Positions 8,994 through 25,670 of a DNA stretch of 33,531 nt are shown here, piece by piece (the first letter of the stretch is position 1; each line of letters begins with the position of its first letter). The position numbers were made by a program, and so were the translations under genes. A model generated the notes under the pieces. The model was not told the origin of the DNA. It searched no databases and worked only from the letters and a program-made list of their open reading frames with translations. The stretch is from a virus (lineage: Duplodnaviria; Caudoviricetes), in the IMG/VR virus record IMGVR_UViG_3300037518_000469, positions 1 through 33,531 of that record, one strand, 5' to 3'.

Positions 8994-9851
8994 TTATGCC
9001 TCTATTGATATCCCTTCTGGGAGAGGCGTCTTGTATTGGTATTGTCGCCAATAGGCGATTACTTCTTCTGGTACGTCGAGGCGGACATACTCGCCTTCTA
9101 ATGGCTCCCTTCTTATGGCTATGGTTATGCCTAAAGAATCGTCATTGTAGACACCTAGCCACGATCCGGAATTCTTTCTATTGAAAATGCAATTCTTGAG
9201 GGCCGTATTCAGGGCACTTTCGACGGAACTTCGTTTTGACCGATATTTATTATGAACCCCCTCTATCACATCTCCTACCCTGCTAACGGTTATATATTGT
9301 TCATTCTCCATGTGGAAACGAAGGCCGGGGGCGTGCATTACATACCACTCGTCATATTCGACAAGCTCCCAAAATCCGCCGTAATCAAAACTGATTCGCT
9401 CCCAAAATCCCCAGGGGTTTGTGGTTGGGTAACGAAATTGCCCCTTGTGGCTCATCTTGAATGTGAATGACTGCCCAATCTCCAGAGAAAAAGGCGCATT
9501 CTCTCGCATTACGTCATCGCCTAGGGCATCATGCAGATCCTCGAATTCCTGGACTGATGATTCTGGCTGCTGAATAGCAACCTTCGGGGATTCCTGCCAA
9601 TCGGGAAAGGCGGCCTTCACGGCCTCAATAAATGACATTAACCTATCGTTTTCCTTATACCACTCCCCACGTACAAGATGCTCAGAAAAAGCCTCTTGTA
9701 AACCAGATTCAAACCCAATATCTCCCGGCATAACCGCCAACATATCCAGAGAATCAGGGCTTCCAGTTTGTAGGCTTGCCATTCGCTTCCAGGGATTATC
9801 TGACTTCCCTATTTTGATACAATCACCAGACCTTATGAAGTAAACCGCCAT
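8994..9851 (-). CDS. GIY-YIG-superfamily (T5orf172/MUG113-like) domain protein with unknown C-terminal domain
   Basis: VYFI...IKIGKS..P.KRM..LQTGSP..L.....E...Q..F....RGEWY; low GC; GGAGG SD. Confidence 0.85.
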   Translation of the reverse strand: MAVYFIRSGDCIKIGKSDNPWKRMASLQTGSPDSLDMLAVMPGDIGFESGLQEAFSEHLVRGEWYKENDRLMSFIEAVKAAFPDWQESPKVAIQQPESSVQEFEDLHDALGDDVMRENAPFSLEIGQSFTFKMSHKGQFRYPTTNPWGFWERISFDYGGFWELVEYDEWYVMHAPGLRFHMENEQYITVSRVGDVIEGVHNKYRSKRSSVESALNTALKNCIFNRKNSGSWLGVYNDDSLGITIAIRREPLEGEYVRLDVPEEVIAYWRQYQYKTPLPEGISIEA

Positions 9852-9866
9852 GCTGACCTCCAATGC

Positions 9867-15021: not shown

Positions 15022-15300
15022 GGAGAAGGGGCAAAGAGTCTGCCAACGGCCGTTTCTCGGAGATGACAAACGGCCGTTGGCTAGAAGAAGAGGGTATTCT
15101 CGCGGCCGGGTCGCAAACGGCCGTAGGAACCAAAGAAAAAGGCGGCGGGGAAAACACAGTTGGAGAAGCCGGTTAATAAAAACCCGCCGCCAGTTTGCAA
15201 AACGGCCGTGCGCGTTTGGTAATCGACGGCCGTAAATGCTGAAATCATCCAGGAGCTAGCCCGTGCAGGGCTAATTCCTGGGGACGCCCCCACCACGAGT

Positions 15301-15346
15301 TAGCCCTTTCAAGGCTAAGACCGGAGTTCGAATCTCCGTGAGGGCA
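15301..15346 (+). other. attP core: 3' part of tRNA-Glu(UUC)
   Basis: Anticodon arm TAGCC-CTTTCAA-GGCTA, T arm CGGAG-TTCGAAT-CTCCG, acceptor 3' strand TGAGGGCA; no D arm; 280 bp after the integrase. Confidence 0.85.
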
Positions 15347-15472
15347 TGAGAATCTTGATTTTCCGATCCGCCATTGGGATCGGTTCGGTTGTAAAGGTTC
15401 TGATCAAACAGCCAGGGCCGGAAACATTAGGCCGTCTGCGGCCCTGGCTGTGAATTTGTTAAGGGTAAAATT

Positions 15473-21425: not shown

Positions 21426-23774
21426 CTACCCAAACGCCTCGTGATAGCAGCTGCCAGCGATCTTATTCGGCTGCTGGTCGGTGTGGGGAATCAGCTCCTT
21501 GATCCAGCTCTCGCGGCCGTGCCGGTTCGACCAACCTGCATAGCCTAGCCCGGCAGCCAGCCAGTATTGTTCTTCCACCACGCCATTGACCAACCATTGT
21601 AAATGCGCCACGTTTGGCAGCTTGATACCGTGCGGGCTGGTCCATTCCGGGTACAGCGCCTTGAACAGCATGACGTTTGTCCAGCTGCTCTTCTCCCCCG
21701 TCGGCTGGCAGTTTGACTTAAAATAGAATGTGGTCGTCTCCTGCCGGGTAAACGTCTGGCCCACGGCCCACTGTGCCGGGATCCAGCCGGTCGGTGAGTT
21801 AACGGTGTAGTATTTGCCATCGCCAGGCGAATCGTCTATGAGGAAGTAGATACGGCCGTCCACAATCATCCGCTTCTCAAACTCACCGCCTTTTGTTACA
21901 AACAGGTAGCCGCCGTGGAGCTGGAGTTGCTGGCGCACGTCGCCCTGTCCCCAGTTGGTCGGCTTGATGCTGATGTCACCGTAGGTACGGCCGTTGGGCG
22001 GCAGGTAGTATTGGGTCATATCTACCGTTTGGGCGGGCGGTGGTGGTGGGGGAGGGGGTGGCGCGGCCGTTTCCGGCCGGTAAAAAATCGCCTCCAACAC
22101 ATCACTGCCGGCAATCGCGTAGCGGCTGTTGACTGTGGCAATGTCGCCCCACCATGGATCCATCATGTAAAAATCCGTCTCGCCCTCGTAGCCAATCACC
22201 AGCACCCAGTGCTGATCAAAATCACTGTCGGCCGGATCGAAATCCACCCGGCAGGGCACTGGCCAGCCATTATCGATCCACTCGCGGATCTTCGGCCGCA
22301 TGGCCGCCGACTCGCGGCCCAGAAAGCCATCGTAGACCACAGATTCGGGGTAGGCAGTGCGCAGCGCGGCCGGCTGGATAAATTGCGCGCTGAACGCGCC
22401 CTGGCTCACGTAGTGGGCATTTTCCGCGTCCGGCAGGCGGGTGGTCAGCTGCCAGTAGCGGGCCAGGGCTGTGTAGGCCACAAGTAGGCAGCCCCAGCTG
22501 CCGATGGTTTTGCCGTGCCCCGTCGCCTGGCCCAGCGTCGCGTTGGCCCAACGGCCGTCACGCTGTCCCAGCGGCTCGACGTTCAGATACGGCAGTTCCG
22601 GTTCTGGTTGCTGGCCGTTGCTATACAGCGGCTGCCAGCCGTAGCCCGCCGCATCGACCAGGTCCACTGCCGCATCGTCCCGATCCGGATGAGAAAACTT
22701 GACCAGCGATTCCTCGTTGCCACCGGCCAGGATGGTCATCATATCGTCGTGGCTGGCCGTCATTGTATGCCGAAAGGGGTAGGTGGTGACGGCCGCTTCC
22801 TGCCACTCTTCGGCCGTCACGTCTTGGGCCACCTTGACCACAATCGCTTTATGTTTGTCCATTGGTTGCTCCACCTCCGGGGGTGCCCATTTCGGCAGCC
22901 CCTTATAAAGTTTTGGTTCGATTTGCTTCAAATAGGCCGTGTAATCGGCATTAAACTCGCTGCCGCCCGTTTCCCACCAGCACAGGCCAATCAGCAGCCC
23001 GCTTTCGGCATACGGCCGCAGCGCCGCCTCCCAGCCCAAAACCTGCTGCTCAAAACGGCCGTAATCCACCACACCGTAGCCGGCCTCAAGCCCACATTCG
23101 GTGAGGATGCCGCCGCCGCCGTACCCGGCAGATTTCAAATACTCCAATTCCTGAATCACCCGCGCTGGTTGGCCGGGTTTGGGCGAGCCGTCCGGCAAAA
23201 CCAGGCTGCCGGTGCCGGGAATGTCTTTGCCGGCGGCATCTGTGTCAGCCTGGCCGTAAACGTGACGGCCGTACACATGCCCCCAGGTTTCCCACGCTTC
23301 GATAACAAACGGTGCAATAATTTGCTGCCACAACGCAAAATCACCCGGCGTGCCCCCGGCCAGGTTGCCCACGCAGCATTTATAGCCGTCGGCACCGGCC
23401 GCCCAGCTAATGGCCCGGTCAATATCCACCATGCGCTGGATGGCCCACGGGTCATTACCGCCCTGTTCGTTTTGGATAATTCGGTAATGGGTTGGGTTTT
23501 TGTCCCAGGCGGCGCGAAAGCTGCCGCCGTTTTCCGTGCGCTCTTTGAACCAGTAGCGGCCGTACTGGTCCCAGGTTACAGCACCTGGCTGGAACGTGTG
23601 GAAGTCAGGGCTGGTTTCACCGTTGGGGAAAACGCGGGTATCGCGCAGCACAGTGATGGTGTCTGGGAGCTGCTCGTCACCGCCCAACCCCACGCCGTTC
23701 AGCGAGACCACCGCCCGCGCCGGGTACTGTTCGATGCCGTTAGTTCGCATGTGGAGCCCGGTTAAACCGACCAT
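21426..23774 (-). CDS. Multidomain endolysin-like hydrolase (GH TIM-barrel-like + C39-like peptidase + beta-rich C-terminal domain)
   Basis: IIQNE and ILTECG (clan-A GH-like Glu pair); LGQRD..W..GCLLVA..QHWVLVIG..MMDPW (C39-like); poly-Pro linker; downstream of the holin. Confidence 0.7.
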   Translation of the reverse strand: MVGLTGLHMRTNGIEQYPARAVVSLNGVGLGGDEQLPDTITVLRDTRVFPNGETSPDFHTFQPGAVTWDQYGRYWFKERTENGGSFRAAWDKNPTHYRIIQNEQGGNDPWAIQRMVDIDRAISWAAGADGYKCCVGNLAGGTPGDFALWQQIIAPFVIEAWETWGHVYGRHVYGQADTDAAGKDIPGTGSLVLPDGSPKPGQPARVIQELEYLKSAGYGGGGILTECGLEAGYGVVDYGRFEQQVLGWEAALRPYAESGLLIGLCWWETGGSEFNADYTAYLKQIEPKLYKGLPKWAPPEVEQPMDKHKAIVVKVAQDVTAEEWQEAAVTTYPFRHTMTASHDDMMTILAGGNEESLVKFSHPDRDDAAVDLVDAAGYGWQPLYSNGQQPEPELPYLNVEPLGQRDGRWANATLGQATGHGKTIGSWGCLLVAYTALARYWQLTTRLPDAENAHYVSQGAFSAQFIQPAALRTAYPESVVYDGFLGRESAAMRPKIREWIDNGWPVPCRVDFDPADSDFDQHWVLVIGYEGETDFYMMDPWWGDIATVNSRYAIAGSDVLEAIFYRPETAAPPPPPPPPPAQTVDMTQYYLPPNGRTYGDISIKPTNWGQGDVRQQLQLHGGYLFVTKGGEFEKRMIVDGRIYFLIDDSPGDGKYYTVNSPTGWIPAQWAVGQTFTRQETTTFYFKSNCQPTGEKSSWTNVMLFKALYPEWTSPHGIKLPNVAHLQWLVNGVVEEQYWLAAGLGYAGWSNRHGRESWIKELIPHTDQQPNKIAGSCYHEAFG

Positions 23775-24245
23775 CTAATCAATCTCCTCGACGCGAACCA
23801 TGTCGGTGTGCCAATCCCAAACCAAATCGTGCATAGGGTACGGTGACAGCACATCAACCGGCACGACCCAAACGCCGTAGCCGTCGTGGTAAAACGGCTG
23901 CCGGTAACTCTCCAGGCCAAAATTATCATAGCAGGCAACTTGTAGCTCCTGACCCTGCCACACAAACGATACGGCCGTTGTCCAGTAAAATAATGTCCAA
24001 TCCTGGATACACGCCCCAACTTTTTGCGCGTGGTCTGGTGACGTTGGCTGCATGTTGGCGTATGCCTCTGGGCTGCCGTCGGCTTGCCCGTTCCACGGTA
24101 TGGGCTCACCGTCTGGCCCAAAAAACCAATATGCCGTAACGGACAGCGGCATTTGTCCGATTGGCGGTACGGCCGTTACCGTTTCCACAGCGCCGCTGAT
24201 TGCGAACAGGATACATACGGCCGTTTGGCATAGGGGGACTATCAT
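23775..24245 (-). CDS. Exported protein, 3D/double-psi beta-barrel-like
   Basis: Signal-like N-terminus; SVTAY...ADG...CYDNFG...VDV spacing. Confidence 0.5.
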   Translation of the reverse strand: MIVPLCQTAVCILFAISGAVETVTAVPPIGQMPLSVTAYWFFGPDGEPIPWNGQADGSPEAYANMQPTSPDHAQKVGACIQDWTLFYWTTAVSFVWQGQELQVACYDNFGLESYRQPFYHDGYGVWVVPVDVLSPYPMHDLVWDWHTDMVRVEEID

Positions 24246-24375
24246 CTGCGCCTCGTGGCTAGCGTGACAACAATCCAGCCGCCCAACAGCACAACAACGA
24301 CAATTCCAACGGCGGGCAGACGTCCGCTAAGATATTCAGTAGCTCAATTTGCTGACCCGTTTGAAGGGGTATCAT
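24242..24375 (-). pseudogene. About 44-aa TM peptide gene with an apparent 1-nt frameshift
   Basis: ATGA overlaps at both ends but 134 nt long; the second frame encodes AVGIVVVVLLGGWIVVTLATRRR*. Confidence 0.4.
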
Positions 24376-24710
24376 GTATCATCCTCACTATCTGGATTCA
24401 AGCGCCAGACCCATTTCGGCCGGTCGCCCTCCAGGAATCCAATGAATACATCCATTGTTTTGCGCCGGTAAAAATGCCCTACCAGCGCCTGTATCTTGCC
24501 CCGCTTTTCGTCACCACCCAGGGATTCGTAATCGACGCCCATGTCAAAACAGAGCTGTGCCAATTCCGCCCGGCTGTAGGCTTGCGTCATTGTGGCCGCG
24601 AGGTGACCGGCCTGGGCCTTGCGGCGGCTCTCTTTCAGCCGCCCGGTATCGGTCGGCCGTTTGGGGATGATAAAAACCCCGCTGTCCGACTCGTTGACGA
24701 CGGCCGTCAT
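24372..24710 (-). CDS. Effector-associated domain (EAD7-like, Death-like fold) protein
   Basis: YSRAELAQLCFDMGVDYESLGGDEKRGKIQALV...RR...F...RP matches the EAD7 pattern F..EEL..LCFDLGVDY..L.G..K..K..EL as I recall it. Confidence 0.7.
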   Translation of the reverse strand: MTAVVNESDSGVFIIPKRPTDTGRLKESRRKAQAGHLAATMTQAYSRAELAQLCFDMGVDYESLGGDEKRGKIQALVGHFYRRKTMDVFIGFLEGDRPKWVWRLNPDSEDDT

Positions 24711-25024
24711 TTCTCGGGCAACCGATACAACGCTCTCCAGCGCCGTAAAACGACCCTCGTATGATTCAAATCTTCGACCGAGGCGGATAGCCAGCTTTTG
24801 AAGCCAGTCGGCAAGACGGGCAGCTTTTTTTTTGTGTCCTCGCTGCGGTTCAGCACCACCGCCAGCCCACCGCCAATCTGGTCCACTTGCCGTTCAACCG
24901 TTTCCAGGCGGTTGCTGATCTCTTCCTCAAACGCCTTGAAACGGCTGTCCAGACGGCCGTCCAGTCGCTCAACGGTCAGCGACAGCCGCTCGACGGCCCG
25001 GATCAGCTCCTCACCGTCACTCAT
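24707..25024 (-). CDS. Coiled-coil protein, probably the N-terminal part of a frameshift fusion with the EAD ORF
   Basis: Heptad pattern up to the A9 run at 24825-24833. Confidence 0.65.
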   Translation of the reverse strand: MSDGEELIRAVERLSLTVERLDGRLDSRFKAFEEEISNRLETVERQVDQIGGGLAVVLNRSEDTKKKLPVLPTGFKSWLSASVEDLNHTRVVLRRWRALYRLPEK

Positions 25025-25316
25025 CAGCCGCCGCCTTCAGATTGGTGATCACCGACTCCAGGAGCACAACCCGCGCATTTAATTCAGAAACCTGCTCTTG
25101 TAGTTCCTTGATGTCGCTTTTGCGCCGCGTGGCCAGCTCCTGCCACACCTCCGCTCGTGACTGAGCATCAATAAATTTCCTTGTGATTTCTTCCAGCTGC
25201 TCCTCGCGGCGTTTCAGATTCACCATGTCCAGATCGGCCAGGGCGTTCACCACCGCGATATGTACGGCCGTTTCCAATCGCGCATTAAAGCCGGGGAATA
25301 ATTCGTCGTCTGCCAT
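25017..25316 (-). CDS. Coiled-coil protein in the lysis module
   Basis: Heptad repeats; GGAG SD. Confidence 0.7.
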   Translation of the reverse strand: MADDELFPGFNARLETAVHIAVVNALADLDMVNLKRREEQLEEITRKFIDAQSRAEVWQELATRRKSDIKELQEQVSELNARVVLLESVITNLKAAADE

Positions 25317-25343: not shown

Positions 25344-25670
25344 CTACTCCATTGCCGCTTCTATCTGCGCAGGACTGGCGGCAACAACAGCCACGGTTTT
25401 GCTGCGCACTTTTTGGATTACATCATGCGTCGCGTTGGCCACACGACTGAACAGGATACCGGTGAACACGCTGCCCAAAAACGGCACCACGGCGTTTAAG
25501 CCCGCCGCCGCATACACATCCTGCTCAAACACCACGGCTCCAGCGATCCCGGCCACCAGCGCGGCAATGAGCCGCCAGTCGAAATTACGTTTCACCGCCA
25601 GCTGCTCGGTGTAATACACAATGGCCTCAATGAGCAGGCCGATCAAAATTGGTAATTGAAATTCCATCAC
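25344..25670 (-). CDS. Holin-like protein
   Basis: Three hydrophobic segments, GSVFTGILFSR.AN..HD motif; first gene after the tail genes. Confidence 0.75.
   Translation of the reverse strand: MMEFQLPILIGLLIEAIVYYTEQLAVKRNFDWRLIAALVAGIAGAVVFEQDVYAAAGLNAVVPFLGSVFTGILFSRVANATHDVIQKVRSKTVAVVAASPAQIEAAME

What the first reader, a model, noticed from the sequence alone, without database searches (positions are those of the whole stretch)
24372..24710. Phage-encoded EAD7-like (Death-like) adaptor domain: candidate decoy against host immunity
Seen: ELAQLCFDMGVDYESLGGDEKRGKIQALV..RR..RP.W with no enzymatic effector attached, located in the lysis module. Known: effector-associated domains were described as homotypic adaptors coupling sensors to effectors in NTP-dependent ternary conflict systems of multicellular bacteria including Chloroflexi, and phage CARD-only proteins inhibit CARD-based gasdermin defence. 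Inference: an EAD mimic that blocks host signalling or, given its late position beside the holin, co-opts host death effectors for lysis. I know of no characterised example.
Basis: partly seen in the sequence, partly recalled or inferred. Interest (0 to 1): 0.8.

Follow-up and report, generated by a model that had tools for sequence, protein, structure and literature searches.

The report
Phage death-fold adaptor behind A9 slip
A temperate phage, likely of Anaerolineae bacteria, carries among its lysis-region genes a copy of the host's immune docking domain EAD7, written in a second reading frame behind a run of exactly nine A's kept in very distant phages, so the domain is likely made in small amounts as the tip of a coiled-coil protein that would jam the host's suicide-defence complexes late in infection.

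Summary
The EAD7 domain is real (Pfam E 4e-15; AlphaFold pLDDT 94; weak but consistent likeness to CARD/Death folds). The 112-aa ORF is probably not the main protein. Its frame opens at an A9 run (24825-24833) inside the upstream coiled-coil ORF; a one-base slip would give a 217-aa coiled coil-EAD7 fusion. The run is exactly nine A's in this phage, five relatives and six distant (pro)phage loci (products mostly 20-37% identical), in all three codon phases. That favours RNA-polymerase slippage over ribosomal frameshifting. The ATG at 24710 is not conserved. A second lineage uses a likely +1 shift, and unbroken 152-225-aa homologs exist. The likely host order (attP equals a tRNA-Glu end; terminase 92%) carries 7-38 EAD7 matches per genome in five of six genomes checked (4 in the sixth), and Chloroflexota EAD7 proteins are fused to STAND, TIR, caspase-like and SIR2 domains. 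Best reading: a dosed, late decoy against EAD7-wired defence (45%); rival: a trigger of host death for lysis (25%). Binding and function are untested. No paper on it was found, but this scan noted the same theme on other phage DNA before.

The parts
24372..24710 (-).
24711..24824 (-). -1 frame extension upstream of the ATG (coiled coil). The first 14 codons after the run are constrained in both frames; codons 15-38 are constrained in the -1 frame only
24825..24833 (-). A9 run (A_AAA_AAA_AAG in frame 0), the predicted recoding site and the only homopolymer of 8 or more in the window
24707..25024 (-). 105-aa coiled-coil ORF: the unshifted product, and the first 67 aa of the predicted 217-aa fusion; its stop overlaps ATG 24710 (ATGA)
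25017..25316 (-). 99-aa coiled-coil ORF; homologs sit upstream of the EAD7 gene in both the A9 and the +1 lineages
25344..25670 (-). small hydrophobic ORF, inferred holin; replaced by an unrelated small membrane gene in L001
24242..24375 (-). small membrane-peptide gene after EAD7; split over two frames here and in L001, a single 42-44-aa ORF in L003 and L004
21426..23774 (-). modular endolysin-like gene (C39-like stretch here; amidase or M23 in relatives)
15301..15347 (+). attP-like core beside the integrase, 47 of 47 bases identical to a stretch in G510; the matching stretch in G501 is a tRNA-Glu(TTC) gene. Host evidence, not part of the cassette

Best explanation
The phage encodes an EAD7 domain in the -1 frame behind a conserved A9 run, and likely makes two late proteins from this gene: an abundant 105-aa coiled coil and, by a likely RNA-polymerase slip that adds one A, a rarer 217-aa coiled coil-EAD7 fusion that would bind the host's own EAD7-tagged defence proteins and uncouple sensors from effectors while virions are assembled. 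Shown: the domain, the frame layout, conservation of the run, unbroken homologs, and EAD7-rich defence proteins in the probable host group. Inferred: that the slip happens, that it is transcriptional, that expression is late and low, that the domain binds host EAD7, and that the effect is inhibition. A 112-aa product from ATG 24710 may be made as well in this genome.
For: Recoding. The run is exactly A9 in 6 of 6 distinct close loci (window, L002, L003, L004, L005, L092) and in 6 distant loci (L197, L198, L202, L205, L248, L251); in all 12, one added A opens a single frame of 154-226 aa through EAD7. Background: 2 A9/T9 runs in 811,823 bases, 0.0007 expected per 560 nt. Selection switches from frame 0 to the -1 frame across the run, and L092 has a 21-nt heptad insertion in the -1 frame. 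Unbroken homologs of 152-225 aa exist, and P0081 aligns across the slip site; in-frame copies occur in genomes (L245; L246 between a major-tail gene and a holin-like gene). Transcriptional rather than ribosomal: three codon phases, 3' base G, T or C, A_AAA_AAG in only 4 of the 10 loci tabulated (all from the window's family), no covarying stimulator (0 of 17 pairs), and nine is the reported slippage threshold (PMC1088944, passages). Decoy. Host EAD7 is fused to NACHT, nSTAND1, TIR, CHAT, trypsin and SIR2 domains (70 of 83 ORFs scanned). STAND sensors detect late proteins such as the major capsid protein (PMC13581612, abstract and passages), which would explain a late decoy. The terminally repeated relative G004 has a single EAD7, so no second phage EAD7 was found as partner. 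A phage CARD-only protein inhibits CARD defence (PMC10312443, passages).
Against: No RNA or protein data. The window's EAD7 lies on a long branch and is at most 38% identical to any non-phage EAD7 sampled, which is more drift than expected for a close mimic. Coiled-coil clustering of Death-fold domains usually activates rather than blocks (recalled: CARD9/CARMA). Placement beside holin- and endolysin-like genes fits a lysis role equally well. In this family the in-frame heptamer is the classic shift-prone A_AAA_AAG (PMC5009743, passages), every A9 also holds A_AAA_AAA in frame, and the ATGA overlap allows re-initiation. The host is inferred from MAG bins and a tRNA end searched in one order only, with no out-group. 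The six distant loci were picked from short-frame EAD7 hits (6 of 29 regions).
Confidence: 0.45

Rival explanations
1. Lysis trigger: the coiled coil clusters EAD7, mimics an activated sensor and nucleates host TIR, caspase-like or SIR2 effectors to kill the cell or help release from the filament. The slip keeps the trigger scarce, and the short coiled coil dilutes it as a timer.
For: The gene lies between a holin-like and an endolysin-like gene in the window family and the +1 family. L088 places EAD7, coiled coil and a membrane helix between such genes. Repeated arrival at dose-limiting recoding (A9 and TTT-C) suggests the full product is harmful in excess. No membrane helix in the predicted fusion.
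Against: In-frame versions exist. L246 places the gene after the major tail gene. The phage has its own endolysin-like gene. Host death effectors would also halt virion assembly.
Confidence: 0.25
2. Phage-internal part: EAD7 was domesticated as a self-associating cap on a coiled-coil scaffold that works with the holin-like protein, the 99-aa coiled coil and the small membrane peptide, with no host EAD7 partner.
For: A distinct subfamily: the DTG motif before EAD7 was found in 66 of 366 EAD7 records (duplicates included), all phage-type loci or proteins of 225 aa or less. Long branch. Conserved neighbours across lineages.
Against: EAD7 sequences differ widely between phage lineages and some look host-like; the upstream neighbour is swapped between two unrelated genes.
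Confidence: 0.15
3. One reading: a stand-alone 112-aa EAD7-only decoy started at ATG 24710 by coupling to the upstream stop is the main product.
For: ATGA overlap in the window and L002, GTGA in L004. Databases hold the short form.
Against: The start codon is lost in L092 (ATA) and reads Ile in P0003, and the overlap is lost in L003 and L005. The upstream -1 frame is conserved. No Shine-Dalgarno-like stretch at normal spacing. It does not explain the A9.
Confidence: 0.1
4. The run is a DNA-level phase-variation switch or a broken gene.
For: Homopolymers can slip in replication, and in-frame relatives exist.
Against: All 12 split loci have nine A's. No length variant in the covering contigs of five runs (contigs drop rare variants). 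The in-frame loci L245 and L246 have no A run of 6 or more in the gene (the single L245 hit of that script is mis-placed and only 6 long). The downstream frame is under selection.
Confidence: 0.05

Closest known systems
EAD7 (Pfam PF19960), effector-associated domain of NTP-dependent conflict systems (PMC7159879, PMC8195603; passages read)
   Same: Small all-helical non-enzymatic domain above the Pfam cut-off; Chloroflexota distribution.
   Different: Phage-encoded, single copy, no core NTPase or effector partner found in the phage, tip of a coiled coil, DTG motif, expressed through a predicted frame change.
pCARD of Acinetobacter phage 133, a CARD-only inhibitor of gasdermin defence (PMC10312443; passages read)
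   Same: Phage-borne Death-like adaptor domain without effector.
   Different: pCARD is domain-only, lies beside rIIAB and was tested; this one is EAD7, coiled-coil fused, recoded, in the late lysis region and untested.
A9 transcriptional slippage genes: Thermus thermophilus dnaX, IS elements, Shigella mxiE (PMC1088944; passages read)
   Same: Run of nine A's joining two overlapping ORFs; as in mxiE, the slip would give the longer product.
   Different: Here in a phage lysis region and gating an immune adaptor; slippage not measured.
Tail assembly chaperone G/GT -1 frameshift of lambda-like phages (PMC5009743; passages read)
   Same: Short and long late proteins with a shared N-terminus, conserved in layout rather than sequence.
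   Different: Not between the major tail and tape measure genes in this genome; the extension is EAD7; run length rather than a heptamer is what is conserved.

Membership tests
EAD7 domain (PF19960) | Profile match above the curated cut-off | tested here: met
   55.8 bits against 32, E 3.9e-15
EAD7 domain (PF19960) | Small, all-helical, non-enzymatic | tested here: met
   four helices, pLDDT 94; no other Pfam family above cut-off
EAD-coupled conflict system (Kaur 2020) | One EAD copy on a core NTPase component and one on an effector, often adjacent | tested here: not met
   no such neighbours among 31 window ORFs scanned; one EAD7 match in each of 3 phage records
EAD-coupled conflict system (Kaur 2020) | Homotypic EAD-EAD binding | not testable with these tools
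   needs the true host's EAD7 proteins and a binding assay
Death-fold superfamily | Six-helix Death fold | tested here: inconclusive
   VIA-align: about 44 of the top 50 chains are CARD/DD/PYD/DED by title or my recall; best Z 7.4, rmsd 3.1 over 73 residues, under the tool's noise level of 8. Foldseek E above 1. The model has four long helices
Viral Death-fold-only decoys (pCARD) | Protein made of the adaptor domain alone | tested here: not met
   conserved coiled-coil extension and unbroken 152-225-aa homologs; an extra 112-aa product is not excluded
Viral Death-fold-only decoys (pCARD) | Inhibits the cognate host defence | not testable with these tools
   needs a defence assay
Programmed transcriptional slippage | Conserved run of 9 or more A or T joining two frames, independent of codon phase | tested here: met
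   12 loci with A9, three phases
Programmed transcriptional slippage | mRNA with non-templated extra A | not testable with these tools
   no RNA holder listed
-1 programmed ribosomal frameshift | X_XXY_YYZ heptamer with a conserved stimulator | tested here: inconclusive
   heptamer present; downstream folds no better than shuffles and shows no covariation

The most novel reading that the evidence does not exclude
Temperate phages of filamentous Anaerolineae share a late-gene module that plugs a coiled-coil-clustered EAD7 into the host's EAD7-wired death network, and have tuned its dose more than once by recoding (A9 polymerase slippage, a +1 ribosomal shift, or none). The ratio of short to long product would act as a rheostat that holds host suicide off during assembly and may release it at lysis.
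Probability: 0.3. Interest if true: 0.9.

Novelty: new variant of a known kind. Interest (0 to 1): 0.72.

Why it matters
EADs are predicted, not shown, to wire bacterial immune sensors to effectors by like-with-like binding. A phage copy kept across many lineages is natural evidence that this network matters in infection, and it offers a probe to test the EAD principle. It would extend viral Death-fold mimicry from CARD to EAD7 in an unexplored multicellular phylum. It also gives a rare candidate of programmed transcriptional slippage in a phage lysis region. Gene callers annotate all these genes as truncated stand-alone ORFs.

Tried and rejected
Sequencing error at the homopolymer: rejected. 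RNA stimulator 3' of the run: none beyond shuffles, no covariation. Co-folding of the phage EAD7 with one stand-in host EAD7 (from a TIR-EAD7 protein of Ca. Leptofilum, L135) gave 'no answer' (score 0.00, controls not run); it is not evidence either way. No RNA holder listed. Foldseek against PDB and BFVD gave no match at E 0.001 or better. No tblastn match among 50,697 GenBank phage records. A search for longer in-frame forms with the 105-aa ORF alignment found none among 6037 candidates, which is weak evidence; they were found only by the full HMMER search. The 99-aa ORF profile gave only four weak coiled-coil hits in long frames in 401 Anaerolineae genomes, although a homolog lies in G493. 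The tree (quick method, 82 columns) separates the A9 clade and the +1 clade but is unresolved and cannot count acquisitions. Promoter and terminator scans were at chance level. Runs X4 and X9 laid nothing. Literature searches found no paper on phage-encoded EAD7 or on recoding of such a gene; the library lacks most subscription papers, and the supplements of the two Kaur papers, which list EAD architectures, were not read.

Full report
Observation. The window is a 33.5-kb fragment of a temperate tailed phage: terminase, portal, tape measure and integrase hits, no terminal repeat. ORF 24372-24710(-) matches Pfam EAD7 at 55.8 bits against a cut-off of 32. An AlphaFold model from a 130-row alignment has pLDDT 94 and four helices. 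Foldseek finds nothing significant. VIA-align lists CARD, Death, Pyrin and DED chains in about 44 of its top 50 rows (counted by title and my recall), with best Z 7.4, under the tool's noise level. 'Death-like' is therefore a fair but unproven label; Kaur 2020 relates EAD7 to EAD1 and EAD6 and names bDLD1/EAD3 as the Death-like one (passages).

The gene is longer than the ORF. The EAD7 frame is open to 24842 and overlaps the 105-aa coiled-coil ORF 24707-25024. The two meet at an A9 run (24825-24833), the only homopolymer of 8 or more in the window. Five relatives (L002, L003, L004, L005, L092; predicted products 53-84% identical for the three tabulated) keep the run. In four of them the EAD7 frame is closed by a stop 1-3 codons before it. 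Upstream of the run only frame 0 is conserved (7 of 11 codons invariant in amino acid, against 1 of 11). The next 14 codons are constrained in both frames (10 and 9 of 14). In codons 15-38 differing codons score 0.98 in the -1 frame and 0.0 in frame 0. The ATG at 24710 is ATG, GTG, GTG, TTG and ATA in the relatives, and the frame-0 stop moves (104-129 aa). One added A, or a -1 shift, would give 217 aa. Covering contigs from five runs show no indel at the run.

Unbroken homologs. The full HMMER search (2612 hits, best 150 listed) gave nine single-frame coiled coil-EAD7 proteins of 152-225 aa among the 30 I read. One, P0081, aligns across the slip site (profile positions 69-207); P0099 is from a Chloroflexota MAG. 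A DTG motif before EAD7 occurs in 66 of 366 EAD7 records (duplicates included), all phage-type or short, none a long host protein; L197, L198 and L248 show that it is not universal in the phage type.

The run recurs in distant phages. I fetched 29 regions from MAGs of the order of G002, chosen as phage-like matches or short-frame EAD7 hits. Six are split at an A-run (L197, L198, L202, L205, L248, L251), two are in-frame coiled coil-EAD7 genes (L245, L246), and the other 21 looked like host genes or had no run (L203 fell in the cut part). All six runs are exactly nine long, in three codon phases, followed by G, T or C; products are 20-37% identical between lineages, except 52% for L198 and L248; 0.0007 such runs are expected per 560 nt. 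Fixed length with free phase, no covarying stimulator and the known nine-base threshold (PMC1088944) favour polymerase slippage (my estimate about 65%) over -1 ribosomal frameshifting, which remains possible because A_AAA_AAA is always in frame and this family has A_AAA_AAG. A second lineage (L065, L076, L077, L100) has the same layout with EAD7 in the +1 frame, crossing at an in-frame TTT followed by CC; UUU_Y is described as +1 shift-prone (PMC5009743). All 27 of 27 hits of that lineage at E 1e-20 or better are 78-126 aa, none the predicted 163-169 aa, within a searched range of 60-203 aa. L088 has yet another layout: EAD7, coiled coil, membrane helix.

Host. Of the best 80 GTDB loci with EAD7, 77 are Chloroflexota by title. 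In the order of G002 (Ca. Leptofilum, Promineifilaceae), 3 of 167 genomes hold the terminase at E 1e-20 or better, the best at 92% on a 22.5-kb contig that also carries an A9-split EAD7 gene. A 47-base stretch beside the integrase is identical to G510, and the matching stretch in G501 is a tRNA-Glu gene. This was not compared with other orders, and MAG bins can hold foreign contigs, though L198 and L246 lie on contigs of 257 and 183 kb. G002, G406, G488, G493, G510 and G547 have 38, 28, 21, 9, 7 and 19 EAD7 matches; G001 has 4; 14 control genomes have none. Among 70 of 83 EAD7 ORFs scanned, partners include TIR (4), nSTAND1 (4 among the families shown), NACHT (3), CHAT, trypsin, SIR2 and TCAD9 (2 each). 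Small enzyme-free EAD7 proteins also occur on host chromosomes.

Mechanism. Shown: domain, two-frame layout, conserved A9, unbroken homologs, lysis-type neighbourhood (holin inferred only), and an EAD7-rich probable host group. Inferred: the slip, late and low expression, binding to host EAD7, and the sign of the effect. I favour a decoy (0.45): STAND sensors respond to late proteins such as capsid (PMC13581612), host EAD7 is predicted to join such sensors to effectors, no second phage EAD7 was found, and pCARD is a tested precedent. Against it, the domain is at most 38% identical to sampled host EAD7, and clustered Death folds usually activate (recalled), which supports a lysis trigger (0.25). 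A phage-internal scaffold (0.15), a stand-alone 112-aa product as main form (0.10) and phase variation (0.05) follow.

Novelty. Six literature searches found EAD7 only in host systems. Five earlier unchecked notes of this scan describe phage EAD7 genes on other DNA, one split at A9, two with other frame breaks and two membrane-anchored; they are not independent support, but one pointed to an unbroken 182-aa form, which I then found as P0081. I had reached the A9 reading before the look-up (notes). Verdict: a real member of EAD7, not a member of an EAD conflict system nor a domain-only decoy; a new variant of viral adaptor mimicry with unusual recoding. Interest 0.72.

Noticed in passing
window 24242-24375 (-): The small membrane-peptide gene after EAD7 is split over two frames here and in L001 but whole in L003 and L004; similar peptides follow EAD7 in L100, L065, L197 and L202.
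   Followed up: partly
window 24250-24760 against L001 6060-6590: The window and L001 are identical over EAD7 and downstream but clearly diverged upstream, with an unrelated holin-like gene: a recent module exchange.
   Followed up: no
window 21426-23774; L001 7066-9399; L003 7423-9735; L004 6279-8627: Large modular endolysin-like protein with no Pfam hit for its N-terminal part and a swapped middle domain (C39-like, Amidase_2, M23).
   Followed up: partly
window 15292-15355: attP-like copy of a tRNA-Glu(TTC) 3' end next to the integrase.
   Followed up: yes
L088 4965-5390: An unrelated temperate phage has EAD7, coiled coil and a membrane helix in one gene, between a holin-like gene and a C39 peptidase gene.
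   Followed up: partly
L108 3956-4372; L165 3776-4204; L252 (EAD7 frame near 2143-2538): Host EAD7 proteins made of EAD7 plus short G/N/Q/V-rich repeats that look like amyloid signalling motifs (recalled likeness; not tested).
   Followed up: no
L005 2510-2782; L100 22-297; L202 upstream of the split gene: A second upstream gene type replaces the 99-aa coiled coil and is shared between A9 and +1 lineages.
   Followed up: no
L247 and L249: EAD7 genes next to CRISPR Cas6-like and PIN-like ORFs (by eye, not scanned), one with a SAVED-like tail.
   Followed up: no
window 8994-9863 (-): MUG113/T5orf172-type (GIY-YIG-like) gene in the lowest-GC stretch of the window.
   Followed up: no
window 23775-24245 (-): 156-aa gene with a hydrophobic N-terminus and no Pfam or PHROG hit, between EAD7 and the endolysin-like gene; replaced in L003 and absent in L092.
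   Followed up: no
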